Source of the DNA: a virus | Reading direction: 5' to 3' (one strand) | IMG/VR virus record: IMGVR_UViG_3300046535_000406 | Coordinates: 32,001-96,000 of that record | DNA length: 64,000 bases | Shown here: in pieces, positions 3,231 to 44,770 of the stretch | How positions within the stretch are numbered: the first letter of the stretch is position 1 | Layout of the letters: each line of letters starts with the position of its first letter | Translations under genes and position numbers: made by a program | Notes under the pieces: generated by a model | What the model saw: only the letters and a program-made list of their open reading frames with translations | The model's database searches: none | Told to the model about the DNA's origin: nothing

Positions 3231-5498
3231 TCAGGCGTTCATGCGGGAGGCGATGGACGCCTCCGCGCTGGCCGATGACTTGCTCGTCGCCGGAGCGCCA
3301 GCGGGGGTGCCCGTGTCCTTCGCCTCGCGAAGCGGGACATCCTCGTGGCCCATGCGCCGGTCGATGTCGCCTTCCATGGACTCGCGCAGGCTCTTGGGCT
3401 TGTCTGCCTCACCGGCAGCGCCCAGACCCCGGACGAGTGACGGACGCCGGATGCCGGTGGCCTCGGCGACCTTGCGGAAGCCCGCAATCTCGCGCTCGAC
3501 CTCGGTGCCCAGTGCGTCGTCGTCGGCGTAGCCGAAGCCTTCACCGACAGCCGACTCGCGGAAGCGATCGGCGATGTATTCCCGCGCCGGGCGCGGCAGG
3601 TCGCTCTCGGAGAGCATCGAGGTCACGAGCGCATTGGCCCGGCCCTTGGCCTCGACTGCGGCCTCCTTGACCTTCATCTCGGCAAGCTCGCGCTTCAGGG
3701 CGTCGAACTCCTCGCGAGAGGCGAACCCGGACTCGGCCACCTTGGCGTCTTCGGCCTTGGCCTCATCCTTGGGAGCAGCTGCGTCGTCGGCCTTCGCCTC
3801 GGTCTTCGCGGCTTCCTTGGGCTCACCCGCCTTGGGCTGCTCGTCTTCGTCGTCTGCCTCGCGGATGGCGAGATACAGGTCTGGCGCGGCCTCCCGCAGC
3901 TGCGCCGGTGTCATCTGCGCGATGTCGGCCATTTCCATCTCCTCGTAGTCGGCTTCAGCGAAGTCAATCGACCCGCCTGCACCTGCTTCGGTGACCCAGT
4001 CGATGCTGTTGATGTGCGCGATCGACTCCACGATCTGCGCGTCGCGGTTGCCCACTCGACCAGCGCGTGCCTTGCCCTTACCGAGCACGGAGAACGCCAC
4101 CTGATCGGGTGCGGCCTTCCACTTCGCGTAGACCCCGTCATCGATCACCTGAACACGGGAGCGCGGGACGCCACGGGTGTGGTCCCACTTCGTCTCCCGG
4201 ATGACGCCTACCCAGTCACGCACGTCACGCTCGGGGCGTTCGCCCTCCTCGCGACGGGTGGGATGGTTGGCGTACATCTTGCGTCCGTTGAACACGCCTG
4301 AGTCCACGGCCTCGCGGACGGAGTCCGTCGGGTAGTACCGCTTGTCACGCGAGTTGCCGAAGCCCGGTTTGATCGGGGTGATCCAGACCTCGTGCTTGGC
4401 GTCATCGAACTCGGCACCGGCCTCGGCCAGCGTCACGAGTGCATCGCCACCGCCGGACGACTCGTGGAAGCGCACGTCCTCGGGCTTTGACTCGGTGTCG
4501 GTGATGGAGAAGGACTCCTTCACCTGCGACACCGGCAGGTCGGGCTCCTTGCCCTCATCGTCGGCCCAGTTGGGGTCGTTCTTCATGTCGCAGGACGCCC
4601 CGGCCTTCATCAGGGCATCGTGGGCGCCTTGGATCATGCCCTGATCGGCTGCGCTGTTGCGCTTGCCGACCTCGGCCAGAGTCACGTCAACTGCCACGTC
4701 CATGGCCTCCTTCAGTCCCGTCAGGTAGCCACCACGGTCAGCGATTTCAGAGATGGCTTGCGCGTCGCCCTTGTCGGCGAGCATGAACAGAACGCTGTCG
4801 GACACGTGGTGGTAGGGATTGGAGTCGTCGCGAGACGACTGGGGACGCGAGTTGGTCAGGTCGCTGGCCTTGCCGCCGTACCGGGCGAACCGCTCCTCCG
4901 CCGACAGCATCTGCCCGGCGTCCTGCCCAGTGCTGGGCGGAATGTCACTGACGGGGACGGCGTCCTTGCGGCTGATCTTGAGTGCACCGATGTGCGCGAC
5001 CTCGTGGTAGCCGGGCGTGCCCTCTTTCGCGGCGGCCTTCGCTTCGAGCCCCGAGTAGAGCTTGCTCGCCGCCTCGGCGCGGTTCGCCATCGGACCGCCC
5101 GGGTGCCCGCCGGATGACGCTGAGCCGCCCTCCCAAGCGCCATAGAAGTGATCGCCCTCGTCCAGCGGCACCTCACTGGCCTCACGGAGGGTGCGATCCC
5201 ACTCGCCGGTGACCGCGTCGGCCTCACGGATGGAGTCCGGGTACTCGTCCGGGCTCTTGCCCCACTTCTTGTAGCCCTGCCGGAGCTTGGCTTTGACGGC
5301 CCCCATGGCCGCGTCGGGGATGTCGGCCTGCTGCCCTCGGAACCCGCCAGCTGAGAGTGCGGCAGCTGCGCCGGGGAGGTGGTCAGGATCAGGTGCGCCA
5401 GTCGCTGTGAGGTACGGCAGCTTCCACGTGGAGGGATCGGCTGACGGCGCGTAGGCGTAAGCCTTGCGCGGGAGCCCATCCTTCATCTGGTCGGCCAC
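3231..5498 (-). CDS. multi-domain prohead protease/scaffolding protein
   Basis: Likely start GTG 5498 after GGAGG (track start 5540). Protease core ITPIKPGFGNSRDKRYYP...KMYANHP...DVRDWVG...FSVLGKG...VESI...SIDWVTEAGAGG; acidic coiled-coil scaffold C-terminus; N-terminal accessory modules (YAYAP..PSTWKLP; KRNSAADQGMIQGAHD). Confidence 0.85.
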   Translation of the reverse strand: MADQMKDGLPRKAYAYAPSADPSTWKLPYLTATGAPDPDHLPGAAAALSAGGFRGQQADIPDAAMGAVKAKLRQGYKKWGKSPDEYPDSIREADAVTGEWDRTLREASEVPLDEGDHFYGAWEGGSASSGGHPGGPMANRAEAASKLYSGLEAKAAAKEGTPGYHEVAHIGALKISRKDAVPVSDIPPSTGQDAGQMLSAEERFARYGGKASDLTNSRPQSSRDDSNPYHHVSDSVLFMLADKGDAQAISEIADRGGYLTGLKEAMDVAVDVTLAEVGKRNSAADQGMIQGAHDALMKAGASCDMKNDPNWADDEGKEPDLPVSQVKESFSITDTESKPEDVRFHESSGGGDALVTLAEAGAEFDDAKHEVWITPIKPGFGNSRDKRYYPTDSVREAVDSGVFNGRKMYANHPTRREEGERPERDVRDWVGVIRETKWDHTRGVPRSRVQVIDDGVYAKWKAAPDQVAFSVLGKGKARAGRVGNRDAQIVESIAHINSIDWVTEAGAGGSIDFAEADYEEMEMADIAQMTPAQLREAAPDLYLAIREADDEDEQPKAGEPKEAAKTEAKADDAAAPKDEAKAEDAKVAESGFASREEFDALKRELAEMKVKEAAVEAKGRANALVTSMLSESDLPRPAREYIADRFRESAVGEGFGYADDDALGTEVEREIAGFRKVAEATGIRRPSLVRGLGAAGEADKPKSLRESMEGDIDRRMGHEDVPLREAKDTGTPAGAPATSKSSASAEASIASRMNA

Positions 5499-5592
5499 GG
5501 ACCGCCCTCCACAGGTGCACGCCTGAAACGGCGTCTGCAACGACTGGGAGGGGCCGGGCTTACGCCTTCGGCTGACCTACTTCCGGGATCGC

Positions 5593-5622
5593 AGTCTAGC
5601 GATGCTGATAACACTGCGTCAA
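5593..5622 (-). promoter_or_regulatory. sigma70-type promoter for the protease-capsid operon
   Basis: TTGACG-N18-TAGACT on the minus strand in the intergenic gap upstream of the protease gene. Confidence 0.6.
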
Positions 5623-5635
5623 TCAGGAACGCGCA

Positions 5636-6088
5636 CTACTGGCGTAGGACGACCTCGACTGGCGCTCGACGTGGGCTGAATGATCGCCCACAACCTTCCA
5701 TTCCGCAACGGAACACGGGGTGGAGGACCGATGCGTACTTGCGCGGGATGATCGCCGGGGTGATCTTCTGACGAGGAATGGGCACCTCGTCCCACGGACA
5801 TATCAGCGGCTCGGGGATCGGCGGCAGCGCGCTCGGTTGTATCGGACCGGCCACCTCCACGATCAGGCCACCACGCGGGCTGAAGTGCTTCCCGCACATG
5901 CCACAGCGGATGATGTCGTTCAGAAGCTCGGCCCAGTTGGGCGGCTTGGTGATCATGCTGCTGAGCCGGATCGGGATGATCCGCTCGCAGAAGGGGCAGA
6001 CCCAGCGGTTCTGGTAGACCGGGACGGTCAGGTCTTGGGGCTGGTCCTCGGACTCGGCGTCAGGCTTGGGGTTGACGACTGCTGCCAC
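5636..6088 (-). CDS. double zinc-ribbon protein
   Basis: Internal duplication CPFC...RCGMCGKHFSPR / CPWD...RCGMEGCGRSFSPR; start uncertain. Confidence 0.55.
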   Translation of the reverse strand: MAAVVNPKPDAESEDQPQDLTVPVYQNRWVCPFCERIIPIRLSSMITKPPNWAELLNDIIRCGMCGKHFSPRGGLIVEVAGPIQPSALPPIPEPLICPWDEVPIPRQKITPAIIPRKYASVLHPVFRCGMEGCGRSFSPRRAPVEVVLRQ

Positions 6089-6200
6089 GAGGGCAAGCCT
6101 ACAACCCGCCGGGCACGAGCGCGGGCTTCTTCCTCGGTGGTGACGAAGCCGATGCGCAGCCGCCGGGCGATCGCCAGCAACTCCTCGGGCGGTCGTTCGA

Positions 6201-26600: not shown

Positions 26601-28780
26601 CGCATCCACGTCAACTGCGGCCCGGGCAGGATCGGGTGCTCGGTGAAGATCGAGGCTCCGGCGGCGATCGTGTCGGGGATGCGCTGTGCCAGCGGTAGCT
26701 CGGCGGACACCGCGCCCAGCCCGTTCAGGAAGTCGGCCAGCCCCTGATTGACCAGCCGGTTGTCGAACTGAAGGCTGAGCCCGCGCTCTGCTGCGCTCTG
26801 AGCGGCCCAGCGGATGGCCGCCACGGTCATTTCCGGCTCGAAGGTGTGTGAAGACGCACCCGTCATCGCGCCGGTGATGAAGCGCAGGTTCTTGGCGTCC
26901 TCCTGATAGACGGCGGAGTAGGTGTTGTCGCCCAGCGCGAACTTCTGGACCAGCACCGGACCGACGCCCGGCTCGCGTATCCCATCCCGAATGTACGGAG
27001 CGTGCAGATCGGGCGGGTGCTTCAGCCACGCAAGCTCCTCGGGCAGGGCCAGCGCCGGGGCGTCAACGACGATCTGGGAGGCCACGTCGGTGTCCCACGT
27101 GAAGGCGTTCTGGTCGGCCACCGGCTGCTGCGACGGACCGTAGTCAGGCAGGTCGCCCAGCAGCGACGCCACCGGGATGGGCGTGCCGCAGGCGTCGGCC
27201 TCCTTGATCCACACGAGGTTGATCGGTCCCTCGGTGACCATGGACTCGGCGAAGTCGGAGATGCCTGCCAGCGGGTCGCCGCAGACGGTGTCGGGCACGT
27301 CGTACTCGAAGCGGCACTTGCAGTTGAGTCCGCACTGGGTGTGGCCGGAGCCCGGGAACAGGCCCATGCTCATCAGCGCGTCGTAGCTGTACGGGCTCAT
27401 GTCCGATAGCTCGATGCAGTCGTCGCAGTGGTCCGCGTCGCCCAGCGTCCACCAGACTTGGATGATCTGGCCCATGGGCGTCGGCGAGAACACGTGATCC
27501 TGACCGATGGCCGACTGCACGTTCGCCACGTCGGCAACCGTCTGGGCCGTGGGTGTGGCGCCCGTCACGGGCGCGATGTTGTCGCCCACTCGGAAGGCTG
27601 CGCGCTCGCCCGCCTGCGCGAGGGAGTGGAAGTCGTTCAGGGCACCGCCGACCAGCAGCGCCCGGAGCCACTTCACCGTGTCCGGCTGTGCGAGGTTCCA
27701 CGGGTTCAGGACGTTCTTCACGATCCAGTTCAGCAGGCCGCCCTTGGCGTGGAGCGCGGCATCTGCCGCCACCATGCTGTCGGTGATGTCGCCTTGGTTG
27801 TCGGCGCTCAGCTGGTTCGCGTTGCGAGCACCAGCGGCCCTGCGCGCTGCCCGCATGGCACGGAGAGCTTGGGCGTGCAGGATGGCGTTGACTCGGGCAG
27901 CGGCCTCCTGCGGCGTGATCCTCCCGGATTGGAGCAGCCGGGTGACCACGGCCAGCTGGTTGCGCACGGCGGCCTGAGCACTGGCGCTGATCTTGGCGAT
28001 GGCGGCCAGCAGCTTCCTGACTTGGGCCTGCTGCACCAGCGTCTGGTTGGCCTGTGCCAGCTTCGCTCGCTCAGCCGCGATGCGATCGAGGATGACCGGG
28101 ATTGACGTGTTCTCGGAGTCGGCCACCGCCCGAGCGAAGCCCTTGCGCATCACGTCGTCCATGCGCACGGCGACCGACTGCAACAGCAGGGCCTCCATGG
28201 CCGGGGCGTCCTTGGCCTGCTTGGGGTCCTTGCCGTTGGTGGTGGTGATCAGGCGCCCGATCAGGTCGCCCACGGAGCCGACCGGGATGACCGTCTCGGC
28301 GGGTGCCAGCCCGGCGGCCATGAGCGTGCGCTGAATGTCCTGCTGGTCCTGCGTCGAGAGCCGTGACAGGTTGCCCAGCGATCGCTTGCCGACGGTGTAG
28401 GCGTTGCTCGCCTGACGCAGGTAGGCCGCGCTGAGCGCCGCCGTGAACTGGGTGCTGGTCAGCGTGCCAGCCTGAAACTGCTCGATCAGCAGCAGCGCCG
28501 ACTCCACGAACTGGCGCACTGCCCGGGACAGGCGCTCATCGGCGCCGGGGTTGCGCTGGGCCGGTCCCCAGCCGATCACCGGCAGCCCTGCGCTCAGCGC
28601 GTAGGCGATCGCCTGAAGGTGGTTGATGTCCCGGTCCGAGGCGACGATGCCCGTCGCGTCCTCTTGGATGGCAACGTCGTACTGGGGGTCGTACCAGAGA
28701 GGATCACTGGCGCTTCGCAGCGCCTCGGTGATCTGTTCCAGCAGCGCCTCGGTGAGGTCCCGGTCAGTCTCCGCGACCAT
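8669..28780 (-). CDS. giant MuF-type (head morphogenesis) polyvalent protein, ~6,703 aa
   Basis: Directly after portal; likely ATG 28780 with GAGG SD. MuF-type Cys cluster WWTLGDADHCDDC...FPGSGHTQCGLNCKCRF (~27300-27460). Then zincin HEYGH (~26210), kinase NADGHGGN/IDKG (~25470-25550), zincin HEMGH (~24700), ART-like (~23550-23990), Nudix box GGVDLNETTAQAAVREAREEMG (~22800-22870), KOW/SH3-like arrays, second kinase NDDAHIGN/IDKT (~9885-9970), C-terminal ART-like EGEREI. Confidence 0.85.
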   Translation of the reverse strand: MVAETDRDLTEALLEQITEALRSASDPLWYDPQYDVAIQEDATGIVASDRDINHLQAIAYALSAGLPVIGWGPAQRNPGADERLSRAVRQFVESALLLIEQFQAGTLTSTQFTAALSAAYLRQASNAYTVGKRSLGNLSRLSTQDQQDIQRTLMAAGLAPAETVIPVGSVGDLIGRLITTTNGKDPKQAKDAPAMEALLLQSVAVRMDDVMRKGFARAVADSENTSIPVILDRIAAERAKLAQANQTLVQQAQVRKLLAAIAKISASAQAAVRNQLAVVTRLLQSGRITPQEAAARVNAILHAQALRAMRAARRAAGARNANQLSADNQGDITDSMVAADAALHAKGGLLNWIVKNVLNPWNLAQPDTVKWLRALLVGGALNDFHSLAQAGERAAFRVGDNIAPVTGATPTAQTVADVANVQSAIGQDHVFSPTPMGQIIQVWWTLGDADHCDDCIELSDMSPYSYDALMSMGLFPGSGHTQCGLNCKCRFEYDVPDTVCGDPLAGISDFAESMVTEGPINLVWIKEADACGTPIPVASLLGDLPDYGPSQQPVADQNAFTWDTDVASQIVVDAPALALPEELAWLKHPPDLHAPYIRDGIREPGVGPVLVQKFALGDNTYSAVYQEDAKNLRFITGAMTGASSHTFEPEMTVAAIRWAAQSAAERGLSLQFDNRLVNQGLADFLNGLGAVSAELPLAQRIPDTIAAGASIFTEHPILPGPQLTWMREMPEMPSFRALAAEPHVSNANAIVQTAFEPSPEHPMADAMALFPGMKNLAGEAFSSAQWDMLRAKAELFDQLGIDRSLNSALSVIESSDGVGYAGRAFSDGRINLEPEMGLAGKITVSNTFGDAWAHEYGHLVSNRLSQRLGADRWNTFKADFRGDNLLKLKSYADTSDEEFWAEAFTAMTRPDYIPGTLAGDTEAWSLMREGGVWHTPEITFPVTKFGAFPTEQVLVDPSKWGTGGLLPGWKWGSADKLGKGTTPRVLLKDPTGQEFLLKPYGVSEEVAGSRVTTLFGLDAPPVARIAFGTGDNPWYAWQALVPRTAQSYWVRAPDAATLARVLGHDEERQLFGHGLVDYLIHNADGHGGNYLYDSGRVWAIDKGYGFDRLGSGLTPSLTDFYERADASMFGRIDHSPDLLLRLTPQDVATTLDRFDGVTDQQLLNAVGDALTTDAAKADLLSRKHNLRQSVEDLFADRTTIADHPSAAWKAWLDDGGTFPYTPPADLGATVSEVTNVSELVARMEARYPGTDWSGLLEVPFDTGKVLAKRMDMLFSRFGTIPSFRGVALRTYAPGKGTIAEVARIDPNVPGSKVFLNRAMFTDSTALQKAFLRDKANVPFSVGGQIATNADEWASDVVTHEMGHEWLGMNLHSRLGADRYAPVRQELEPWLKSTLWPALKTTHISKYARSNQHELWAETFAGAIEGMNQPETKQLAAIFDKFYPAKPADPLLGFSPQDLPSVNLTDVMKPKDTGFFKNNTPQAVRDAVLALPEAEREGATKLIRNMATLWKKDVSVVPTDWQVWLIKGSTFEAPTEVLPAAATLWDKKLTPQWSKPEVPLPPAPTAAEFAPEGSAGIVTQLLNPKDEWWLEPNLKPIADAAEWNAVDTGAINKSLRAGEHVADQSVDGTMVKGKDLLDYYDRLSTQAETTAPGILYRGQSLKAGALGKVGDSYVDKAIPFATSSGNKAYNFAIPGGVVQRMHVPKGFRLSAGEATYQVQLPRNLRWRIVRVTDGKELGLAENVSVVDLVPDTGVVPGYQYTGVPFKSFTAPPKPDTPFDGLTFKIDEKAPVLEPGTTVEPIPVEGIAPLNTPPVDWTGHVPEEPPLPEGAVADWQLKDMREAADKAWLRWEAVQSGEAKYAITWSQAESDAAKKAGLFEQKIGSQYYAAKSKADLDALDKAVKGGLDTNSDAFWKDTLGYSQKQLDTIDAYDVAKKGTHSLRAGVVLVEPDGRMWIISPRNRWAGYENTFAKGGVDLNETTAQAAVREAREEMGFSVELDKYLGDFTATDNGSITRYYVAHRTGGGPAWAKTIKETYSVRLGTPSEVRPVLLRYDKPDSRDTKVLDSYLEQAGLPPVAPPITEPPARLLGMSPDDVSGGSPFLHEQLGYDPQIAEASAGVWTPTSMPTGLMKVELPGGPDGTSSVFFRDDEAAKTRRWVLTAFKNDSGVLVAAADPAMAQLRANAMLAMVTNLPKGWDLSIEGSMGFGKADFALLGIPGEVPGFGKTLLIGNGDAVKVAKIMADPTALSADAPTLTLTPAVTDTLAAKLGPADPTIAVGQIVGTNTPTHFATHGVEAPADPFFETYGVAKPAWDTSLFVSEGKAPDEVLSSVHWKIGTTDQPINLFYPNAASSFVRMGVPEWKVTGIETRRAILLKEILRQADKGMEVEVTVSTTETAKLADLFTVLGSKSEGGSWRLDAPQLQLLRKATDQNVSITSLLPPPGITTAAMHPAAQAKSLDQTLGHVVTATPNKLSAQGTTGIGEKWGFDQHEAYNFVNGTGTGIPTPDGPDLKSHPQKQVWTTSKGGDVEFYWDTSPNGNLRLNQVITGENVSEPDVAAALVGQLQYFAGVMQNPALYGVNHLAVRIDDAVMNVLGDKTKQMLTAAGLKPSSVLGGWILSRPNTIGLVHSLLNDLTDVAAVASVAPAAFAIGDTVLHATYGIGTVIDAVAGGTFYVKFPSVTSYFLADQLKPIVKAITSLKPGDMVHTLDNKPALIASISADGQKALVKIGFGEQTFSIADLSLAHQWQIGDLVNYLGNEGSITKIEPDILFLKTTADGKLFATEPWNANLTFIGSQPAWEVGDTLVNGAGVKGAVTFVHADGFIDVHWATGTSPSIHVDPNATTLGVPLTKTGSLGAPTAPAAPSAAGFRVGDKVQSGGLSGTKGVIAAVFPDAGKVTVTWDSGITSTAFDPTHPNVMLKHVEPSATFKVGDHVANMWDATGTITNVADGKVGITWDISPGAGAGLLIDPTTVGLKHVPDVGVTQPPLKVGDTVIEQISGKGQMVTVQTIDPVGTLALVELPDGSTTWMAVSSLVKPGFSSPAWAVGTATPVAAVTTFVQGDVVKTAFGVGKVNKVLPGDVIEVTLPSGAYKSFTVGELSSVAPQVGDAVIHPTLGHATITKIDTGITPVQIQVKAVGSEAWAWANPDNVVKVGDKLQHGAIVQTIDANQVIAVTGGAKFTSPVSEVQKDLKLGKYPGLTPGTGAVTTAAEPWKVGDQALWQPPGFAHPEQVTIQAVSPSGLITVKGAAANAFPVAPTELARVPAATTEPFKVGDAVLVTKGAAFSGQVGSITHVGLLSSGETYYDVALPGAPYVSFKAEELAPAPGTAPGVMAPGGVPAGITVGAKVEIEGLTGTVTQIAPNGILTIAVDTGGSTTAYGIGDAKVVMVQHGPPLRIDGKVHISGTGVSSLDGQDGIISAIHPNGTYAVTKLDGATAQDVSAKNLHPFLTWNVGDTALLPSGTKVEIKSITGLDFYGATVQYADGHIDKWPVWALVKPAGAAPTPVVPTNPFKIGDHVTTPSGSSGVVSEITPPQGVSGGMIVMKLPDGTSLVTSPATLKMTRPPGAVGGLFQKLGVSKAEFDKGWQTQLATGESAYQVKPVGGAIGGLYASMKKNLQGDLVLYSIGGTTLGSDASYLAALSGIASFPLDPLKIAPKNLIVPTSFLNAMPTLSDLMKQAGAVESQYGWLTLTAAQATDLATKLSTDTQLITVGSLAAGGTKVAGSIDFAGWATEDIAQMAAAIGAIPDTLALGGGALSLSWKAGKFDIGGTLDYPPNATKPMRILNLTSPIAMQNTTFMVVTQYAGESLSYGQKLIYEDQALSVIDEHWKNMLLDHYNGSLDLSGSQTRIILPYEDAQQLAKDIKQASGIASPQALPVPPQTGVLTGATLAVPNPVTVGAYDPLTASLYTVQYEKSVSGHSLLSGANTTMKQTHYGTGAIDGGTAEWRRIGNRLELWQTTGDQLGVFAAQMRKFNDYMDATPSLTHLNLKGPILEPGPVRTWLEEAGWDPSQKLLKSDVDQIVSDLDSEVGAATNAVPVTLAFGSVPGYDPAVVDNFAMHWGVETNEKAAYLSGANTSVKHVVWGGGSSLDYRRLGNRVELLKLTAPSEHIADNVAFAFIQHAADLFDKTPSLYRLRIDSDAFLATSLSMRDTLKAYGGVLSKTNDMAFKPEDVQAIRDKLVADGQAPTIVTVAPPPVAPTFSTLGTIEGYDPQAIALASIPDIEQTIHPVHLAGTANKALKETIYGDGNQALKVQWRRIGQRIEVSSAEGDYTPTLLLAHMKRMAEAMETTPGIEYTVVRASIVGGMPLDLRNLFEVAYGTAATKGDIKMGRLDAEALLKDLKADEVKAKAAPGIAPTIQSAPKPVPATTVASSYAAGDHIVWGKGLNGFVTSVDHNGKLSVTSVSGTTFKLKPEDVTPYTATTPNVVFPGSKAGGYNLGDQVQWGKPSLGTPMQTGTVTQISQSGELTITTQSGAVVHKAATNPNLSKVAPAVSFAKGVIEPPPTTLAVGDKVKFVGSGPPTYEVMAVKPNGLIDVKDSDGNLWADMNGEHAVKVGVVPAFTPIPPEGLKVGDWALKPDGKYAKVMHTFDNGNVQLSIGNTFAPGDIVPAGSVTKVAEPTKQAAFSIGDQVVLPNGKVDVIASIDGVDEYHVAGAPGLPFFGKDMLLAKPAEPAGLKVGDIVDHMNGNSAYKGGTVVAINDVSKTANVKWPGFGGAQGLESPQVNLKLVGAPPPVLAKVGDEIVVKPGGGDATGDVATYGGQMGTVNYVSLNGQMMDVTMLDGSTGTFAQNEVIVSAKAGTLTPAAVPSPLTPKAGDTVSVNGKTGTVMGTHGIVNGEMTWGVEFPGEPVWGYFPTSQLSAAVGPKVGGKVTVKAIGGAFDGETGTITAISPDGLDIEVILNDEHATQVTFEPSELENANPAPFRIGEHVNYGGQNLTVTKLFPVTGNVQAMGVDGTPFVLVPESVNKGWITATTPAPKFAVGDKVLTNDYGIGTIAQVNSATVEVSFDPLTSPNAPSSKIYNPAKLTPKPQIKVGDSVLTYGGDEGVVNYLSPDGLTAHVTTMTANLTQETKDLTLVKVQPGFHQGDWVTVPTGQTGKIAYVTDDGTKANVTLGTAGVGSGTGTLTVKTELLKPAAAPKYAIGDKVTFTDAGNQPITATVTQLNQPSGMVIVTSDVTGYPLLKAESDLTPFVAPEPVPATFVVGDKVKWTPTGTSGVVTNVSDNAVTVKWEGSGTVSTAKGGPGSAYASIVKPVPSAGETYVPKPGDTVAQPLYGTGTVIEKTPYSPTAMVDFGANGKQLVGISTLTKVEPGTVATVKASTAPAGLKVGDQVTHPSFGTGTVTEVSSGSTVLVDWDTYPKSWTNVAFLTPTGVNVPKVVAPTLSKAALSAHKLAVGDWVLKQDGNYGKIVKVFKNGKAKVTIQSYGSGANIPMSQLSYVQTWPASEVAVGDTVVYYTGGKPYVVTEIPDTGYYLKALYSGNTTGNVQQLGKTSVTIVQKGVGNLETGDPVFASGFGLAEVVSVDSTVNPATVTVALEDGTTQTLVGQDIKPIPKLWKAGDIGQLPSGKVGTVTNVSTDTITLDVGGNPASAAIPDLKAPEPPANPLKTGDFVMTPKGQMGVVTNAASPSGLLVNVAPEGLPPVVETYNQLLLKQLPQPWKVGDYALLPNGVNAMITSISPVGDVTLSMKGSSVIQTATLDQLKASPYAPNPWKFGDKVITPQGNGTVTSTTMSTVSVKLEDGTPVTMVPGALKAAPIVPYVPNAKLITPNSPLYVPPVSAQSLSQVAQGPLIPASSRLDTLLGYDHSEMIATHHLGASEAALPGPQQIVPGTKLPQTIQTATYTVSGGNQVKTLYAVSTTGSLVSLVGAESLGATAKEVNDATWSELLDLAQKTAQRVDEDGNVMAASRLYVIDAVLDAHPGMKDLLLRAGGTDFRVRPAEGQGGGFFDALGPGVRLEGPQAETLANALLANTEDPLLQGQVLAAIPKPPQLVDLPKGVLANQPIKIMGGTPDNLWLAGGETIRANGLRAVSSWAGGKVEAEWLRTGPIMEWTNLTIASGTTEAEVTASTVRMLHSLLSNIAATPGTVLEVDQQVLSANPALRDLLLRYKGAEAATTSRAWIRVTADRANMMRQDIEAEMGASSAAGTVATPIVAPTIWPVPQDLKLLSAKGLGGQSPKAAFIDSQGNEWMFKIGASGRGARTDVAVNQLAGLLDLRTPPVKQYTLEINGKMTNGALQKLVPDIEHVKSPGELTPDQTTEFFQQSVLDWLTANDDAHIGNWMVSQSDGHLWGIDKTRSWVGMGGKFDTLDPANEGQGGEMGLLPMWSMFWRDARKNPALLANVDPKAIARTLGHLEAMSDQQFLQIIQPVLNDWKGLRQKSYDAFREAALLRKNQVRGDYQTFFASEVKAAMAGPKGADVPQSWRDWLLQDGGVFRLQLTYDEQHIDKMAEWDRDLLPSPTTDPLKEARRLLDPSSDVPGRPSKSSMQEALGYVHSYSGSGMSGEKTVEKMGSARTYGAGLIASKTDADAYAYASKINQWAVLHATFDPRYENSSVQWIKDIRNAYDPATGTWLWVRNVADTTDAQAYYERLSRLGYPSGRGGSLGLSAGFVQDAGVMITAKMNLENFYATSFVNPSWFQSTEGEREIIARDLQLPQIIRLSKYDGSMWNNEARKAGMDPWEYTKNYSGPVVQNSTSSGW
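11520..15660 (-). repeat. protein-level array of ~24 KOW/SH3-like small beta-barrel repeats inside the giant protein
   Basis: Units begin (F/W/L)x(V/I)GD.V followed by G.(G/V)TV..V, about 50-60 aa each; counted by eye. Confidence 0.75.
18110..20840 (-). repeat. protein-level array of ~16 KOW/SH3-like repeats inside the giant protein
   Basis: From FAIGDTVLHATYGIGTV to FKIGDHVTTPSGSSGVV; counted by eye. Confidence 0.75.
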
Positions 28781-30839
28781 ACGTCGCCTCGGCAGCATCT
28801 GCGGCCTGCCGTGCAATCTCTACCAGACGGTGGACGCGGACCCGCTCGTCCGGCGGAGCCCACGACTCCTGAATGGGAGGCGCGGTGTCCTGCTTGACTC
28901 CGGCCTTCTGTGCCGCCGTCGGCATCATGCCCGGCACCGGCGAGAGCTTCGTCGGGAAGCCGCCCTGAGCCGCCAGTGGCGTCAACAGCGACTGCGGGTC
29001 GATCGGCTGTGGGCCGGTGGCGCCCTTCATCATGCCCTCGGGCAGCGGCGGGAACAGGCGGTCCATCAGCTGGTCCACGTCCTCGATTTCGAGCGCGACC
29101 ATGGCGATGGACAGGACCCACTTGCCAGCCTCGGGGTTCTGAAGCGGCAGCATGTCGTAGAGCGCCTTCAGGGCCGTGAAGTAGGCCGCAAGGTCCTTCT
29201 TGATGATCGGCGGGAAGACGACGCTCACGTACCAGTCGATCGGCTTGCTCGGCCCCGGGTCTTGGTCCGACAGGGCCGTGAAGACCATCGGCTGGACGGC
29301 AGGCGGCGGCGGCGGCACGAACGGCTGGGGCGGGCCACCCGGCGCGGCGGGGTCGGCAGGCTTGGACGGATCGGCAGTCGCCTTGGCAGGGTCGGCGCCG
29401 TTCACCTTGGCGCTGTCGCCCTTCACGTGAATGTTGATGTCGCCCTCGTGCAGTTGCACCGGCGAGCCTGCGCGACCGGCAGGCGGTCCACCTGCGCCGA
29501 CGGGTGCCGTGGTCGGACCCGGGTTCAGCTGAGGCGGTCCAGCTGGCTGTGCGGACGAGGTGTCAAGCACCTGCTGCGCCGTCATCGACCGCTCGCTGTA
29601 TTTCGTGGAGTCGTCGCGTGGGCCGAGCTTGCCAGCGTCGTGAGCCGTCTCCAACGCGAAGGTGACGATGTCCGACATGATGTCGCCCAGCCACTTCTGC
29701 CACGACTCGTACATCTTCAGGAGCGGAAGCTCCATGGCGGTCGCGGTCGCGAGGTTGGCGTTGGCCTCGTCGCCGAAGTAGTGGTTCGGGATGCCGCCCA
29801 TGCCCGAGCCGCCCATCATGCGGAGGATGCGCTCGTCGGCCAGCGCGTTCGTGCCGCCGGTGTCGTTCTTCATCCATTCGAGGGACGAGTAGTCGTTCTC
29901 CACGATGGTCGAGCCCGGCGCCGGAGCAGGGTTGGTGTCGTAGCCGGTGGCGCTCACCTGCATTGACGACTGAAGCCGGGCGACCTCGGCGGCCACATCC
30001 TGAGCCGTGCTGTTCTTGCGCTTCTTCTTCCACGCGAACGTGGCAGCTGCGTCAGTGATCGTGGAGCGGTTCTCCATGAACCGCTTGTGCGCGTTGACCC
30101 AGTCGAGCGCGGCCTCTATCTCGGACTCGCCCATCTTCGACTTGCCACGGCGGCAGAGCATGACCAGCCCGTCCTCGACCGCCTTGGGCGCGGTCTGGCC
30201 CTTGGGGTCCAGAGGAGCGTCGTTGCGCCACTCGCGATACCAGATGAAGTCGTCTGCCGTGGTGGCGGAGTAGGAGCCAACGTTGAAGTCGTAGCTGCCG
30301 CCCAGCTTGCGCACCTTCACCCAGAGCGGGATGCGCCAGTTCTCGGGATCGGTGACCACGTCCTCGATCAGCAGCGAGTCGATCGAGCCAAGCTCGACCT
30401 TGCCTTCATCGGTGTCGGGGAACATGACCAGCACTTGCAGGCCGTCGGTGAAGGCACCCTTCAGGAAGTCGGACTGGGCCATGTAGCCGAAGAACGTCTG
30501 CTGGTTCACCGGGTTCTGGACAAGCTCGTCAACGATCTTCGCGACACGGGTCTTGTTGGCGGCGGAGAGAGTCACGCCGCGCCCGATGGTGTAGTTCACG
30601 AGCAGGTTGGACGCCTGCTTCACGAGCGGGCTGCGCCGGGCTGCGCGTCGCGCACGGCGGATCGTCGTGATCCGCTCGTCTCGGGTCAGGTACGTCTCGT
30701 CGCCGGAACGGTCGTACGAGAGGTTCGTCCAGTTGGCGTCTTCGAGAGCGCGCTCGACCGTCAACAGGGCTTCGCGAATGCTGACCGGCTTGGGTCCAGC
30801 GAAGGCGGGAGCGCCGTTCGGCTGCACGGTGAGTCCCAT
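28764..30839 (-). CDS. portal protein
   Basis: Likely ATG 30839 (MGLTVQ). SPLVKQASNLLVNYTIGRGV, DPEN, G.SEI...DW, GGIPNHYFGDEANANLATATAMELPLLKMYESWQ and FPPI are typical portal motifs; Pro-rich insert near C-terminus; precedes MuF. Confidence 0.88.
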   Translation of the reverse strand: MGLTVQPNGAPAFAGPKPVSIREALLTVERALEDANWTNLSYDRSGDETYLTRDERITTIRRARRAARRSPLVKQASNLLVNYTIGRGVTLSAANKTRVAKIVDELVQNPVNQQTFFGYMAQSDFLKGAFTDGLQVLVMFPDTDEGKVELGSIDSLLIEDVVTDPENWRIPLWVKVRKLGGSYDFNVGSYSATTADDFIWYREWRNDAPLDPKGQTAPKAVEDGLVMLCRRGKSKMGESEIEAALDWVNAHKRFMENRSTITDAAATFAWKKKRKNSTAQDVAAEVARLQSSMQVSATGYDTNPAPAPGSTIVENDYSSLEWMKNDTGGTNALADERILRMMGGSGMGGIPNHYFGDEANANLATATAMELPLLKMYESWQKWLGDIMSDIVTFALETAHDAGKLGPRDDSTKYSERSMTAQQVLDTSSAQPAGPPQLNPGPTTAPVGAGGPPAGRAGSPVQLHEGDINIHVKGDSAKVNGADPAKATADPSKPADPAAPGGPPQPFVPPPPPAVQPMVFTALSDQDPGPSKPIDWYVSVVFPPIIKKDLAAYFTALKALYDMLPLQNPEAGKWVLSIAMVALEIEDVDQLMDRLFPPLPEGMMKGATGPQPIDPQSLLTPLAAQGGFPTKLSPVPGMMPTAAQKAGVKQDTAPPIQESWAPPDERVRVHRLVEIARQAADAAEATYGRGD

Positions 30840-30982
30840 CACCAGCACCTGAAGTGCGCCCCATCCTGAACGTCGAAGCTCGGCACGCCCGGATGGGGCA
30901 GAACGCCGCTCCTCAAGAACCGGGGTTGCCGGTCGCGGGGAAAGCCTATCACGGGCGTCCAGACTGCTGGTACTGTGCGCGC

Positions 30983-31210
30983 ATGACCCGCCCCCATCCA
31001 CGCCAAGCGGACGCGCTTGCGCTCGCCTCGGGCATCGCCATCGTCTCCGTGGCCCTCATTGCCGTCGCAGACATCGTCGCCCACGGATCACTCGAACCGG
31101 CGGTGATGACGCTCGTGGCCTCCACGATCGCGCCTCTGACGCCCGCCCTGATCATCCGCTACGGGATCAACCCGAACCGTAGCGGGCACGAGCAGAGCCC
31201 GCCCCAGTGA
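30983..31210 (+). CDS. small two-TM membrane protein (counter-oriented)
   Basis: TACTGT 6 nt before ATG (leaderless-type); two hydrophobic helices. Confidence 0.5.
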   Translation: MTRPHPRQADALALASGIAIVSVALIAVADIVAHGSLEPAVMTLVASTIAPLTPALIIRYGINPNRSGHEQSPPQ

Positions 31211-31767: not shown

Positions 31768-31768
31768 T

Positions 31769-41602: not shown

Positions 41603-41613
41603 CTAGGTTTGGT

Positions 41614-41641
41614 CCGGGTGCCGCTCGACGGCGGCACCCGG
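41614..41641. terminator. perfect 11-bp hairpin
   Basis: ccgggtgccgc-tcgacg-gcggcacccgg just upstream of the promoter. Confidence 0.55.
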
Positions 41642-42000: not shown

Positions 42001-43449
42001 TCAGCCTCGCAGGATGATGCCGTCCACTTCGGCGATCTGGGACTCGTGGAGCGCCTTGCGGGCGATGCCCTCATTGGCGGCCCACTGGTCGGCGTTGCGC
42101 AGCAGGGCGACAGCTGGCATGTCCACCCGGAGCACCGGCACCCGGTAGTCGGCAGCCGTGCTCATGTCGTGCGCGATCGAGGCGGCCCATTGGTGGTGGC
42201 CGTCGATCACATAGTTGTCGGCGGAGATGAGCACCGGCTTCATCGGCTGGCCGCTGCCGTGCCCTTCGAGCGAGTCCAAGAAGCCAGCCGTCTTGGCGAC
42301 ATTGACTTCATTCTGGGAAGGCTTCAGGTCCTGCGGTCTGATCCGATCGCTGGTCACAGCGATGCCATCGTCGCGCAGCCCGTTCAGGTAGTCGTTCACC
42401 TTGGTCGCCGGTATCTGGGGCATCTCGTCACGTGGGATGCCCAGCGACGGGCCGAACGTCTCGTTGCCGTCCACCCTCAGCTTCGTCAAGTCGAGCGGAG
42501 CGCCATCGTGGGACTGGGACGCCTGAAGTGTGGGCTTCAGGTCGGACCGGGCGACGTTGGCGTCCTTCCCGGCAGCCAAACGCTGGATGGCCTCGGACGG
42601 TGAGTGGGCCGCGTGTCCCCCGGCACCAGCTGATCCGCCCAGCCACGCGCCATAGAAGTGGCCGTCTTCCGACTCCTTGACCGGCACGAAGCTCACCGTC
42701 CGGTGGTCCATGGGTCCGCCGTGCACCGCCGTGTAACCCCGGGTCGGGTAGCCGTTCCGCCCGGCTGCCGCCATGACGGCGTCGATGAACGCCTTGGCCC
42801 CACCCTCGTAGCCGCCTGAGCCGTACAGCATCCCGTCCGCATAGGCGTCGGCAATGTCTTCGCTGAGCGATCCGCCGGTGATCGAGCCGTTGCCCTGCAC
42901 GGTGAACAGGCCCGGGACGTTCCAGTGGTTCTCTCCGACCTTGTATTGGTCCAGCACCGACTTCACGTCCGCGTAGGCAACACTCGTTCGGTGCCCGGCC
43001 TCGTGGTACATCAGGTTCATCAGCCGGTTGTTGCGCTCCTCCGGCGTCTCGCTGATCCGCCCGCCGGTGCCCAGCACGTTCGACCCGAGGGTGATGTTGC
43101 GATCCGTGTTGTAGCCCGCATGGCCCACGATGGCGCCTCCGCCGGGATGGCCCTCGTCGTGTGCCGCCGCAGCGTTGATCGAGCCGAGACTGCCCGTGAT
43201 CACGATGCCCGGGGCCTCACCGTTCTGAAGCTGCTGGTCGGTCATCGCCCACGGCTTGGTCTGGGGCCAGCCGTTCACGTCCTTCCTGAGCGCCTGAGAG
43301 GCCGGGAAGTCAGCGAAGCGGTCCTTGGTCGCCGGGTGACCACCGGCTGAGGCGCTACCGCCCGTCCAAGCGCCGTAGAAGTGATTGTCGTCGTCCGACT
43401 CCCGGTAGCGACCCATCGCCGCCTGAATGTCGTCGCGAATGCCGCTCAC
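42001..43449 (-). CDS. two-module effector: zincin-like metallopeptidase + ParB/Srx-like domain, each preceded by an HFYGAW tag
   Basis: LMYHEAGH...SEDIADAYA; GIPRDEMPQI, DLKPSQNEV, PVLISADNYVIDGHHQWAA; tags at 43366-43383 and 42643-42660; GTGA-coupled. Confidence 0.75.
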   Translation of the reverse strand: MSGIRDDIQAAMGRYRESDDDNHFYGAWTGGSASAGGHPATKDRFADFPASQALRKDVNGWPQTKPWAMTDQQLQNGEAPGIVITGSLGSINAAAAHDEGHPGGGAIVGHAGYNTDRNITLGSNVLGTGGRISETPEERNNRLMNLMYHEAGHRTSVAYADVKSVLDQYKVGENHWNVPGLFTVQGNGSITGGSLSEDIADAYADGMLYGSGGYEGGAKAFIDAVMAAAGRNGYPTRGYTAVHGGPMDHRTVSFVPVKESEDGHFYGAWLGGSAGAGGHAAHSPSEAIQRLAAGKDANVARSDLKPTLQASQSHDGAPLDLTKLRVDGNETFGPSLGIPRDEMPQIPATKVNDYLNGLRDDGIAVTSDRIRPQDLKPSQNEVNVAKTAGFLDSLEGHGSGQPMKPVLISADNYVIDGHHQWAASIAHDMSTAADYRVPVLRVDMPAVALLRNADQWAANEGIARKALHESQIAEVDGIILRG

Positions 43450-43643
43450 GCGATCGCCTTGTTGACTTCGTCCATGGACACCCGGTCGATGTCGGCGCCG
43501 GTCACCAGCAACTCGATCAGCCGGGGATCAGGGACCCACTTCTTGGACGCCCAGTCCCAACGCTCAGCCGTGGAGCCGTCATCGGCTCGCCGGTAGGCGA
43601 CCTCGACCTTGCCGTGGTTGTCGTGGATCAGGTAGCCGATCAT
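43446..43643 (-). CDS. candidate immunity protein for the upstream alarmone-synthetase toxin
   Basis: 65 aa, ATGA-coupled to the toxin stop; Y..R....ERW.....WVPD......G....VS.DEV pattern. Confidence 0.6.
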   Translation of the reverse strand: MIGYLIHDNHGKVEVAYRRADDGSTAERWDWASKKWVPDPRLIELLVTGADIDRVSMDEVNKAIA

Positions 43644-44770
43644 GGGTTGCGCAACTGCACGCCACTGGGCGGCCACCCGCCGGGGACCGGCACGGTGTTC
43701 TGGTTGGCCTCCATCTGAAGCCACAGAGACGCCCTTTCGTCAGGGCTTGACGAGGTCCGCCACGCCTCGTAGAGCACGTGCTGCGAGCGCGCCGTCGCGA
43801 CGGACTCCGGCGTGTGGAACTGCAACTCGAAGCGAATGTCGGTGCCCGGCTTCTCGAAGACGGCGTTGACGCCCTGATAGACCGCCGGTGGTGGCTCATG
43901 GTCCCAGAAGTTCTTGGGCGCCTTGCCGCCCAGTGGGGCGTAGCCCTTCCGAAGCAGGTCGGTGTAGGCGCTCTGGAAGGTGTCCCGGTACGTGGAGTCG
44001 TCAGCCACCATCGTGTAGCGGAGGCTGTCGTTGATCCCGCCCGCCGCCTCCGGGATGGTGAGGTTCTTGTCCCGGGCGTCAGCGGCGATCTTCTCGGCCA
44101 GTCGGTCCTCGCCCTTCAGCCGGGCGTCAAGGCCCTGCATGGTCGCTCCGACCTTGCCGGAGATGGTCTGAAGGTCGGCTGTTACCTGCGGCTCGTTCTT
44201 CACCGCCGCCAAGCGCATCGCGTGGGCGGCTGCCGCCACCGTCGTCATGCCAGCTGGGATGGGATGGCCGCCCTTCCCGCCCCACCACGCGCCGTAGTAA
44301 TGGTCGTCGTCGCTGGCCTCGTGAAGGGGCTTCCACTGCCAGTCCCACGCCTTGCCAGCATCGGTCAGGGCCGGTGTCGCCTTGGCTGCCTTGTCCGCTT
44401 CCGCCTTGGCTGCCTTGGTGAGCATCGCCGACACGCTGTTCGCGACATCGGGTGCCCAGATGCCTTGCGAGTGCGCGGTCATGTACCAGATGTCACCGAC
44501 ACGATTGAACGTGGCTGACGCCTTGCCCTTCGTGATCGTGACTGCCTGCCCGTCCGGGTGGACCTCCACCTTGTCCGGGTGAGCGGCCAGCCGCTTCTGC
44601 TCGTCGTGCCCAGCGTGCGCCGACAACTCGTGACCCATCGCCTCCGGGTGTCCGCCGGACGATGCCTTGCCGCCTTCCCACGCTCCGTAGAAGTGATCGC
44701 CGCCCGACTCGACCAGACGGTGCGTGTCCATCTCGGTGGCGATCGCCTCGCGGAGGCTGGGCTCCCTCAC
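43640..44770 (-). CDS. RelA/SpoT-type nucleotidyltransferase toxin (Tas1/Apk2-like) with two HFYGAW tags
   Basis: Likely GTG 44770 (coupled to the stop of 44767..44979). RLK...KI...DSLRYT...KNFW...YQGVN...FELQFHTPES...HVLYEAWR is the small alarmone synthetase signature. Confidence 0.8.
   Translation of the reverse strand: MREPSLREAIATEMDTHRLVESGGDHFYGAWEGGKASSGGHPEAMGHELSAHAGHDEQKRLAAHPDKVEVHPDGQAVTITKGKASATFNRVGDIWYMTAHSQGIWAPDVANSVSAMLTKAAKAEADKAAKATPALTDAGKAWDWQWKPLHEASDDDHYYGAWWGGKGGHPIPAGMTTVAAAAHAMRLAAVKNEPQVTADLQTISGKVGATMQGLDARLKGEDRLAEKIAADARDKNLTIPEAAGGINDSLRYTMVADDSTYRDTFQSAYTDLLRKGYAPLGGKAPKNFWDHEPPPAVYQGVNAVFEKPGTDIRFELQFHTPESVATARSQHVLYEAWRTSSSPDERASLWLQMEANQNTVPVPGGWPPSGVQLRNP

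What the first reader, a model, noticed from the sequence alone, without database searches (positions are those of the whole stretch)
5101..44712. Shared H(F/Y)YGAWxGG...GGH tag links the prohead protease/scaffold to stand-alone toxins: candidate capsid-loading signal
Seen: a ~20-aa motif occurs five times in three otherwise unrelated proteins. Protease/scaffold: LDE|GDHFYGAWEGGSASSGGHP (5101-5160). Zincin+ParB protein: YRE|SDDDNHFYGAWTGGSASAGGHP (~43334-43400) and VKE|SEDGHFYGAWLGGSAGAGGH (~42613-42678). Alarmone-synthetase protein: LVE|SGGDHFYGAWEGGKASSGGHP (~44646-44712) and LHE|ASDDDHYYGAWWGGKGGHP (~44261-44325). Codons differ between copies, so conservation is at the protein level. Every copy is immediately preceded by hydrophobic-x-Glu|small, and in the effector proteins each copy sits at the start of a separate module. 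Known: T4 internal proteins use an N-terminal capsid-targeting sequence, and T4 gp21 and phiKZ gp175 head proteases cleave after Glu. Inference: these are polyproteins recruited to the prohead and cut by the prohead protease into tag-headed effectors delivered with the DNA. This would be a MuF-independent, modular virion effector-loading system encoded ~37 kb from the head genes.
Basis: partly seen in the sequence, partly recalled or inferred. Interest (0 to 1): 0.92.

Follow-up and report, generated by a model that had tools for sequence, protein, structure and literature searches.

The report
Portable tag on phage-packaged effector modules
An uncultured 109-kb phage, and at least 127 metagenomic protein clusters, put the same roughly 25-residue peptide in front of dozens of unrelated toxin-like domains, just after a head-protease-type cut site, so it most likely marks enzymes that are loaded into the capsid, cut apart and injected with the DNA.

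Summary
The motif h-R-E|(A/G/S)-x2-3-DDH(F/Y)YGAWxGGxxxxGGHP occurs 5 times in the window. It occurs 12 times in 8 genes of the whole 109,497-bp phage contig, against 0.0002 expected by chance. Seven copies lie just outside the window, inside the head-tail gene block.

A profile of the tag finds 127 metagenomic protein clusters carrying 186 tags. These head about 96 unrelated module families:
- GNAT acetyltransferase, ParB/Srx and Zeta toxin;
- ADP-ribosyltransferase, zincin peptidase and an Apk2-like alarmone synthetase;
- fusions to the C-termini of portal proteins.

The protease domain folds like T4 gp21. Its presumed site h-(R/K/H)-E-(A/G/S) occurs 12 times in the protease/scaffold protein (0.7 expected) and once at the capsid protein's N-terminus. 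In 93% of tags it lies 2-9 residues before the tag's His, mostly 4-5.

The tag is not intrinsic to the protease: 54 of 59 homologues lack it. Here a tag-plus-module cassette is inserted into the protease/scaffold gene.

Best reading (about 0.6): this is a portable junction for virion-packaged, protease-released effectors. Whether the tag loads cargo, docks the protease or acts after maturation is open. No Pfam or NCBIfam model covered the tag in the proteins scanned, and no paper holds its core string. Among the scan's notes returned here, the tag appears only on this genome; conceptually similar T4-type tags are noted on other phages.

The parts
3231..5498 (-). Protease/scaffold polyprotein: N-terminal domain (NTD), inserted tagged cassette, gp21-like protease, scaffold-like tail. 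Residue numbers below count from the TTG at 5540.
   Evidence: Matches phrog_15531, head maturation protease. 59 homologues were found. Library protein P0137 (755 aa) starts at GTG 5498.
5211..5483 (-). NTD of the protease/scaffold family (aa 20-110); also used as an N-terminal carrier in front of tag+effector in other proteins
   Evidence: Present in 21 of 59 protease homologues. It forms module cluster 4, with 10 members that are always N-terminal. Matches phrog_19463.
4761..5177 (-). Inserted cargo cassette (aa about 122-260): tag plus a module of about 110 aa, bounded by TLRE|AS and GLKE|AM
   Evidence: Absent from the closest homologue, P0138: 63% identity on the C-terminal side, 57% over the NTD. 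The first part of this region matches no other homologue.
5100..5165 (-). Tag copy 1: LDE|GDHFYGAWEGGSASSGGHP
3861..4448 (-). Prohead serine protease domain (aa 365-560), invariant His426 and Ser484
   Evidence: Alignment A3. AlphaFold2 model with mean pLDDT 86.8. Top PDB matches are the three chains of T4 gp21 (5jbl; E 1.4e-4, prob 1.00, TM 0.41-0.50), then herpesvirus proteases.
3234..3860 (-). Scaffold-like C-terminal region, dense in h-(R/K)-E-(A/S) sites
   Evidence: The whole protein has 12 sites against 0.7 expected from shuffles; 5 of them lie in this C-terminal stretch and another at its N-terminal edge.
763..1755 (-). Major capsid protein; ELRE|SGS at aa 16-18 (window 1702-1710) suggests an 18-aa propeptide
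   Evidence: PF25209 Phage_capsid_4, E 6e-39. Site found.
28764..31001 (-). Portal protein
   Evidence: phrog_10963, E 2e-34
43640..44731 (-). Two-module tagged protein: tag, unknown module of about 105 aa, tag, alarmone-synthetase-like module
   Evidence: Identical to library protein P0008. Tags found.
44645..44716 (-). Tag copy 2: LVE|SGGDHFYGAWEGGKASSGGHP
44261..44326 (-). Tag copy 3: LHE|ASDDDHYYGAWWGGKGGHP (three residues shorter)
43643..44260 (-). RelA/SpoT-homologue small alarmone synthetase-like module, related to the Apk2 toxin domains of MuF toxins
   Evidence: PDB 8vx3 'SaSAS', E 1.6e-14. tblastn gives 37-38% identity to the C-termini of pneumococcal prophage 'head morphogenesis' proteins. 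Matches phrog_7625 and phrog_2841. The Apk2 family is described in PMC12226406.
42001..43449 (-). Two-module tagged protein: tag, HExxH module, tag, ParB/Srx-like module
43333..43407 (-). Tag copy 4: YRE|SDDDNHFYGAWTGGSASAGGHP
   Evidence: pLDDT is below 50 in the model, i.e. predicted disordered.
42682..43332 (-). HExxH (MYHEAGH) zincin-like module; the fold is not confirmed
   Evidence: 55% identical to P0125 and related to P0002 and P0005 modules, all of which carry HExxH. No Pfam hit. Foldseek found nothing for this half.
42610..42681 (-). Tag copy 5: VKE|SEDGHFYGAWLGGSAGAGGHA
   Evidence: pLDDT below 50.
42004..42609 (-). ParB/sulfiredoxin-fold module (DdrB-type ParB; YVIDGHHQW motif)
   Evidence: Foldseek hits to ParB N-domains, sulfiredoxin and Noc with prob 0.96-1.00 but E only 0.02-0.2. 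phrog_2859, E 4e-26. It belongs to the second largest tagged module family, 25 members.

Best explanation
The motif is the junction of a portable cargo cassette. It consists of a gp21-type prohead-protease site, h-(R/x)-E|(A/G/S/K), followed mostly 4-5 residues later by a disordered, almost invariant peptide, DDH(F/Y)YG(A/P)WxGGxxxxGG(H/G/R)P, and then an effector module of about 100-320 aa.

Cassettes hang on different carriers: a short N-terminal leader, the NTD of the protease/scaffold, the portal C-terminus, or another cassette.

Proposed mechanism:
1. The precursors enter the assembling prohead.
2. The T4-gp21-like protease cuts after the Glu. It does the same at a dozen untagged sites in its own scaffold region and at the capsid protein's N-terminus.
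3. The released modules, each now headed by the tag, stay in the capsid.
4. They leave with the DNA and act on the host. Modules in this phage include ADP-ribosyltransferases, an Apk2-like (p)ppApp/alarmone synthetase, a ParB/Srx domain and zincins.

Because the tag keeps a fixed distance from the scissile bond, I think it most likely docks on the protease or prohead core. That would serve both recruitment and processing.

Shown here: the motif, its spread, the module identities, the protease fold, the site enrichment and the cassette insertion. Inferred: cleavage, packaging, ejection and the docking partner.
For: 1. Twelve copies in eight genes. Five of those genes (seven copies) lie between the capsid and tail genes, interleaved with a Neck1-like gene.
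2. 127 cluster representatives carry 186 tags. Their 210 modules fall into 96 BLAST clusters, and the first tag lies within 70 aa of the N-terminus in 98 of 127 proteins.
3. Module families include GNAT, Zeta toxin, ART, ATLF-like zincin and ParB/Srx.
4. Portal-tag-module fusions occur in L004/P0066, P0104 and P0019.
5. The same effector domains are attached in other phages to known head-internal carriers. The synthetase module matches MuF 'head morphogenesis' C-termini, and the ART module matches T4-like Alt and an Enterococcus 'minor head protein'.
6. The protease model's best PDB match is T4 gp21, with invariant His and Ser.
7. [LIVMFWY][RKH]E[AGS] occurs 12 times in the protease/scaffold against 0.7 expected. 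The genome mean is 1.5 per 1000 aa and the protease/scaffold family averages about 10 per 1000 aa. The capsid protein has LRE|S at aa 16-18.
8. 170 of 182 tags have h-x-E upstream, and in 136 of them 4-5 residues separate the Glu from the His.
9. The 12 exceptions carry a basic residue followed by A/S. They belong to the subfamily whose one available contig has an HK97-type protease.
10. A tagged cassette is inserted in the protease/scaffold relative to P0138.
11. Tagged proteins and protease homologues share contig length and source on six other contigs: 115194, 111848, 21620, 18696, 19004 and 7138. This is inferred co-location.
Against: - There is no virion proteome and no cleavage data; every biochemical step is inferred.
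- Eleven of the 12 sites in the scaffold protein have no tag, so the tag is not needed for a site to exist.
- The tag stays perfectly conserved in cargo fused to portal or scaffold, where a loading signal seems superfluous.
- The tag is the same in phages with different protease families (gp21-like here, phrog_80/HK97-type in L004) and different portal families. This is awkward for a protease-specific docking site, unless a feature of their shared fold is what is recognised.
- The two window genes lie 37 kb from the head genes, next to a DNA methylase, and their timing of expression is unknown.
- Co-location with the protease family rests on equal contig lengths, not on reading the contigs.
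Confidence: 0.6

Rival explanations
1. The Glu site and packaging are real, but loading is done by the carriers (leader helix, NTD, portal, scaffold). The tag works only after maturation, on each freed module. It could hold the module in the capsid, thread it through portal and tail at ejection, or address, activate or time its decay in the host cell.
For: - Every module keeps its own tag, including internal ones and those fused to portal or scaffold.
- No conserved cut site follows the tag, so it would stay on the mature N-terminus.
- The tag is invariant across phages whose proteases and portals differ.
- N-terminal copies have a conserved amphipathic leader ending at the Glu, resembling a T4 capsid-targeting sequence.
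Against: - Some leaders are only 7-8 residues long (P0053, P0148 and the window's own 43640-44731 protein), too short for a targeting helix.
- The tight 4-5-residue spacing between Glu and tag is unexplained if the two are read by different partners.
Confidence: 0.22
2. The tag is the recognition or cleavage site of a co-encoded enzyme other than the prohead protease. The obvious candidate is the zincin metallopeptidase modules, which Iyer et al. proposed as processors of polyvalent proteins. Another candidate is a modifying enzyme.
For: - HExxH modules are recurrent tagged cargo: 25 of 210 modules against 2 expected.
- They are present on five held sequences: this genome, L004, L125, L128 and L130.
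- MPTase processing of polyvalent proteins is proposed in PMC5512222.
- An earlier scan note (e1-127136) describes a shared phage tag that turned out to go with a modifying enzyme.
Against: - The zincins fall into at least five unrelated clusters and are themselves tagged cargo, whereas the tag is nearly invariant.
- The upstream Glu motif is shared with untagged scaffold and capsid sites, which points to the head protease.
Confidence: 0.08
3. The tag has nothing to do with the virion. It is a linear motif for a host factor, a secretion route or intracellular regulation of phage toxins made during infection.
For: - The two window genes lie far from the structural genes.
- The tag is predicted disordered, like many short linear motifs.
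Against: - Portal and protease/scaffold fusions exist.
- Five tagged genes lie inside the head-tail block.
- The same toxin domains ride on MuF or Alt in other phages.
- A head-protease-type site is coupled to the tag.
Confidence: 0.05

Closest known systems
Phage T4 internal proteins IPI-III and Alt, with the capsid-targeting sequence, processed by gp21 (Mullaney & Black 1996, as cited in PMC10052503; (L/I)-x-E specificity from my own knowledge)
   Same: - A gp21-fold protease.
- Hydrophobic-x-Glu sites.
- Short N-terminal leaders ending at the Glu.
- An Alt-related ADP-ribosyltransferase among the cargo.
- Unrelated proteins sharing one address element.
   Different: - In T4 the conserved targeting peptide lies before the cut and is discarded. 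Here the strongly conserved part lies after the cut and would stay on the mature protein.
- The tag is about 20 residues, Gly/aromatic-rich and far more conserved.
- It repeats inside polyproteins and occurs in non-T4-like phages with a tape measure.
Ejection and inner-body proteins of giant phages SPN3US and phiKZ, cut by gp245/gp175 after an x-E motif (PMC10052503)
   Same: Many head proteins, including portal and ejection proteins, are cut after Glu. Multiple motif copies sit in regions that are degraded.
   Different: Those substrates have long or short N-terminal propeptides but no shared downstream tag. Their cargo is not built from tag-headed exchangeable modules.
MuF polymorphic toxins, including Apk2 (PMC5576092, PMC12226406)
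   Same: - Variable toxin domains carried by a head-associated element.
- The window's synthetase module is homologous to Apk2-type MuF C-termini.
- In L004 the cassettes sit between the portal and protease genes; from my own knowledge that is where MuF usually sits.
   Different: - No MuF domain in the tagged proteins or anywhere in this genome.
- The carrier is a roughly 25-aa peptide, not a domain.
- There are several modules per protein.
- A weak MuF-like hit does follow a tag in L129.
Phage-type polyvalent proteins (Iyer, Burroughs, Anand, de Souza, Aravind 2017, PMC5512222) and the phage P1 Dar/DdrB head proteins discussed there
   Same: - The same hub domains: zincin MPTase, DdrB-type ParB, ART, RelA/SpoT, GNAT and fusions to portal.
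- Predicted packaging and delivery with the DNA.
   Different: - That work proposes processing by the zincins. My term searches of it found no inter-domain tag ('linker' and 'glycine' have 0 occurrences).
- Here the modules are split over eight genes.
- Every module is preceded by one conserved tag plus a head-protease-type site.
Encapsulin cargo-loading peptides (from my own knowledge)
   Same: A short, disordered, portable peptide attached to unrelated enzymes, in a system built on an HK97-fold shell.
   Different: No binding of the tag to the capsid protein was tested. Encapsulin peptides are not coupled to a protease site and the cargo is not ejected.

Membership tests
T4-type capsid-targeting-sequence cargo | Prohead protease of the gp21 type | tested here: met
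   The model of aa 365-560 (pLDDT 86.8) has T4 gp21 (5jbl) as its top PDB match (E 1.4e-4, prob 1.00, TM 0.41-0.50), followed by herpesvirus proteases. His and Ser are invariant across 37 sequences.
T4-type capsid-targeting-sequence cargo | Hydrophobic-x-Glu cleavage site at the end of a short N-terminal leader | tested here: met
   170 of 182 tags have such a site. It is enriched 12 against 0.7 in the scaffold protein and is present at the capsid protein's N-terminus. Cleavage itself was not shown.
T4-type capsid-targeting-sequence cargo | The targeting element lies N-terminal to the cut and is removed | tested here: not met
   The conserved block (information 3-4.3 bits per position) lies 4-5 residues C-terminal to the Glu. 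Positions before the site carry about 0.5-1 bit.
T4-type capsid-targeting-sequence cargo | Proteins present in the virion and ejected | not testable with these tools
   Uncultured phage; no proteome exists.
MuF polymorphic toxins | N-terminal MuF domain (PF04233) | tested here: not met
   No Pfam hit in the tagged proteins. No PF04233 match in the whole contig at E<=1. PHROGs found none in three 1000-aa segments of the giant ORF (aa 1-2000 and the last 999 aa).
MuF polymorphic toxins | Variable C-terminal toxin domain shared with other toxin systems | tested here: met
   ART PF03496, Apk2-like synthetase, and Zeta toxin and GNAT in relatives.
Phage-type polyvalent proteins (Iyer et al. 2017) | Two or more effector domains from the characteristic repertoire in one polypeptide of a phage | tested here: met
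   - HExxH + ParB/Srx (window 42001-43449).
- Zincin + ART (L001 12242-13498).
- Up to 6 modules in P0001.

Phage-type polyvalent proteins (Iyer et al. 2017) | Processing by the embedded zincin peptidase | not testable with these tools
Encapsulin-like cargo-loading peptide | The peptide binds the inner face of the HK97-fold shell protein | not tested

The most novel reading that the evidence does not exclude
The tag is a self-sufficient, portable address that works across phages with different portals and proteases, a tailed-phage counterpart of the encapsulin cargo-loading peptide. Any protein placed behind 'h-R-E|A-x-x-DDHFYGAWxGGxxxxGGxP' would then be recruited to the prohead, released by the protease and injected. 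On this reading, the roughly 96 module families it heads are a ready-made catalogue of injected host-takeover and anti-defence effectors, most of unknown function.
Probability: 0.3. Interest if true: 0.88.

Novelty: new variant of a known kind. Interest (0 to 1): 0.72.

Why it matters
Protein cargo injected with phage DNA (T4 Alt and internal proteins, P1 Dar, MuF toxins) matters in the first minutes of infection, but it is hard to recognise from sequence. A nearly invariant tag of about 20 residues would give a simple sequence handle for finding such cargo. It already flags about 96 module families, most of them without any annotation, next to known toxin folds: ART, Zeta, GNAT, (p)ppApp synthetase and ParB/Srx.

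If the tag, with its cut site, is enough for loading and release, it would also be a practical way to load chosen proteins into phage capsids. It also suggests how phages shuffle cargo: whole cassettes move between leader, portal, scaffold and other cassettes.

Tried and rejected
All 120 hits were chance matches or an unrelated Rokubacteria 'YHYYGAWGGW' protein. Prophage and cellular distribution is therefore untested.
- IMG/VR holds only one tagged contig, L004. The metagenome scan gave 7 true contigs and 1 chance hit.
Co-location with the protease family is inferred from equal contig lengths only.
- The genome search draws no relatives for a virus record.
- The complex prediction of protease domain with tag gave no verdict, so it says nothing either way.
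- phmmer of the protease/scaffold against PDB found nothing.
- Foldseek of the 482-aa model gave no match for the HExxH half.
- tblastn of the protease/scaffold against GenBank phages found nothing.
- No paper contains 'HFYGAW'. NCBIfam has no model on the tag.
- No MuF was found in the genome or in the giant ORF.
- The apparent alignment of the tag region to T4-like Alt is just the ART domain.
- The idea that the tag is a DNA-level recombination repeat is rejected, because synonymous codons differ.
- P0056 (LRR/dockerin protein) is a false hit of the profile search.

Full report
**Setting.** The window is bases 32001-96000 of a single 109,497-bp virus contig with 66.9% G+C. CheckV's estimate of completeness is 87%. 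Nearly all genes are on the - strand and there are no tRNA genes.

The head genes in the window are:
- portal, 28764-31001 (phrog_10963, E 2e-34);
- a 6715-aa ORF, 8669-28816;
- the protease/scaffold protein, 3231-5498;
- the major capsid protein, 763-1755 (PF25209).

Downstream, outside the window, come a Neck1-like gene, tail proteins and a 1568-aa tape-measure protein.

**Observation.** The whole contig has 12 copies of H[FY]YGAW followed by xGG...GGH. All are in coding frames of the - strand, against 0.0002 expected from composition.

The seven extra copies lie in five genes at genome 25.1-29.8 kb (L001 11092-15840), between the head-completion and tail genes. Over the 17 core codons the copies are 71% identical in DNA. 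Half of the codon pairs that encode the same residue differ, so selection acts on the peptide.

**What the tagged proteins are.**
- In the window:
  - 43640-44731 reads tag, unknown module, tag, small-alarmone-synthetase-like module. The synthetase module matches PDB 8vx3 at E 1.6e-14. It is 37-38% identical to the C-termini of pneumococcal prophage MuF proteins, the Apk2 (p)ppApp-synthetase toxins.
  - 42001-43449 reads tag, HExxH module, tag, ParB/sulfiredoxin-fold module.
- Outside the window:
  - two clear ADP-ribosyltransferases (PF03496, E 5e-26 and 5e-22), one of them behind an ATLF-related zincin;
  - several unknown modules.
- The ART domain is related to T4-like Alt and to an Enterococcus phage 'minor head protein'.
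- In the AlphaFold model the two tags are the low-confidence, unstructured stretches between folded modules.

**Spread.** A profile of the 12 copies, searched against 1.84 billion cluster representatives, gave 128 hits at E<=0.001, all metagenomic. 127 of them hold 186 tags when rescored; the other is a false hit. There are up to six tags per protein.

Cutting the proteins at the tags gives 210 modules in 96 BLAST clusters. The largest are:
- GNAT acetyltransferases, 29 modules;
- ParB/Srx, 25 modules;
- Zeta toxins, 10 modules;
- an N-terminal domain (NTD) that always comes first, 10 modules.

Further points:
- The first tag lies within 70 residues of the N-terminus in 98 of 127 proteins.
- The tag follows the portal domain in P0066/L004, P0104 and P0019.
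- No Pfam or NCBIfam model matched the tag in any scan, PHROGs gave no annotated family for it, and no paper holds the string HFYGAW.

**The Glu site.** Across the library, 170 of 182 tags have hydrophobic-x-Glu 2-9 residues before the His, and in 136 cases the gap is 4-5 residues. P3 is L/V/I/F/M, P2 is Arg in 53%, and P1' is A/K/G/S.

Three independent results tie this site to the head protease:
1. The protease domain (aa 365-560) models with pLDDT 86.8. Its best PDB matches are T4 gp21, then herpesvirus proteases, and His426 and Ser484 are invariant in 37 homologues. From my own knowledge, gp21 cuts after Glu in (L/I)-x-E. The related giant-phage protease gp245 cuts after an x-E motif.
2. 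[LIVMFWY][RKH]E[AGS] occurs 12 times in the protease/scaffold protein, against 0.7 expected from shuffles and 1.5 per 1000 aa genome-wide. The density is about 10 per 1000 aa across the 59 homologues. This is what one expects of a scaffold that is degraded by its own protease.
3. The capsid protein has ELRE|SGS at residues 16-18.

The 12 tags without a Glu site form one subfamily ('GK-ADSEDD', 'DR-ADDEDD'), with a basic residue before A/S. The only contig of that subfamily that includes its protease gene (L004) has an HK97-type protease (phrog_80, E 6e-33). The site seems to change with the protease while the tag stays. This rests on one contig.

**The tag is cargo-side, not protease-side.** Only 4-5 of the 59 protease/scaffold homologues carry a tag. 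The closest homologue, P0138, aligns to residues 20-121 and 261-767 of the window protein. The window protein therefore has a roughly 140-residue insertion: tag plus a module of about 110 aa, bounded by TLRE|AS and GLKE|AM.

The NTD is a regular part of the protease/scaffold family (21 of 59). It also serves as the N-terminal piece of NTD-tag-effector proteins. The same cassette is thus found behind four carriers: short leaders, the NTD, portals and other cassettes.

**Link to the protease family.** Tagged proteins and protease homologues share source and exact contig length on six other contigs: 115194, 111848, 21620, 18696, 19004 and 7138 bp. This is inferred co-location.

**Mechanism.** I read the unit as a portable junction for virion-packaged effectors that are released by the head protease.

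The step I am least sure of is what the tag itself does.
- Against a pure 'loading signal': it is kept where loading is already guaranteed (portal and scaffold fusions), and untagged scaffold sites exist.
- For a link with the protease: the fixed spacing from the scissile bond, and the presence of site plus tag even when the leader is only 7-8 residues long.

My preferred version is that site and tag are read together by the protease or prohead core, which would serve both recruitment and release. A role after maturation (retention, ejection or action in the host) is the main rival. The zincin-processing idea of Iyer et al. is possible, because HExxH modules are over-represented among the cargo (25 against 2 expected). 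It fits the site statistics less well.

**Comparison with known systems.**
- The system works like T4 internal-protein/Alt loading with gp21 processing.
- Its domain repertoire is that of phage-type polyvalent proteins and MuF toxins.
- It fails the T4 pattern in one tested respect: the conserved element lies after the cut.
- It lacks MuF.

I therefore file it as a new variant of a known kind.

**Earlier scan notes.** Notes on neighbouring windows of this same genome list the same tag. A sequence look-up found no look-alike stretches in the scan's other windows. Conceptually similar T4-type tags are noted on other phages.

Noticed in passing
window 8669-28816 (-): A single 6715-aa ORF lies between the portal and the head genes. 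Pfam finds only a NUDIX domain (aa 1951-2024). It has no tag copy, and Pfam, PHROGs and BLAST against L129 detect no MuF domain, although other first readers called it MuF-anchored.
   Followed up: partly
L130 (whole 7.5-kb contig), L128 262-996, L131 3-710: A second inter-module motif, roughly Y-x-P-D-Q-P-R-x-P-x-G-x3-GG-E-W, sits in the same kind of position: after the portal domain, between modules and at N-termini. It occurs in contigs that also carry the HFYGAW tag. It is absent from this genome.
   Followed up: partly
window 43446-43643 (-): A 65-aa ORF lies between the synthetase gene and the HExxH/ParB gene. Its start abuts the upstream stop and its stop overlaps the downstream GTG. 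It may be an immunity or partner protein for the Apk2-like module; in Apk2 prophages the immunity genes follow the toxin gene.
   Followed up: no
window 45004-46206 (-): An N6/N4 DNA methylase (PF01555, E 1e-33) lies directly upstream of the two tagged window genes. Methylases are a hub domain of polyvalent proteins, but this one has no tag.
   Followed up: no
window 1702-1710 (-), in the capsid gene 763-1755: The capsid protein has the presumed protease site ELRE|SGS at residues 16-18, which implies an 18-residue propeptide. The portal has SIRE|A at residues 75-77.
   Followed up: partly
window 33136-34431 (-): A 431-aa protein has a weak RHS-repeat hit (E 5e-4, just under the Pfam cut-off) and no PHROG family.
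   Followed up: no
window 43640-44731 (-), aa 164-327: The synthetase module also matches the C-terminal part of the XopAD/skwp type III effector models in NCBIfam (E 1e-22, domain level only). The same nucleotide-pyrophosphokinase-like domain therefore seems to be used in very different delivery systems.
   Followed up: no
L001 13405-13824 (-) (genome 27405-27824): A small 139-aa tagged protein has only a short Lys/Glu/Ala-rich, probably helical tail after the tag and no enzyme-like module. This shows that the tag also heads non-enzymatic cargo.
   Followed up: no
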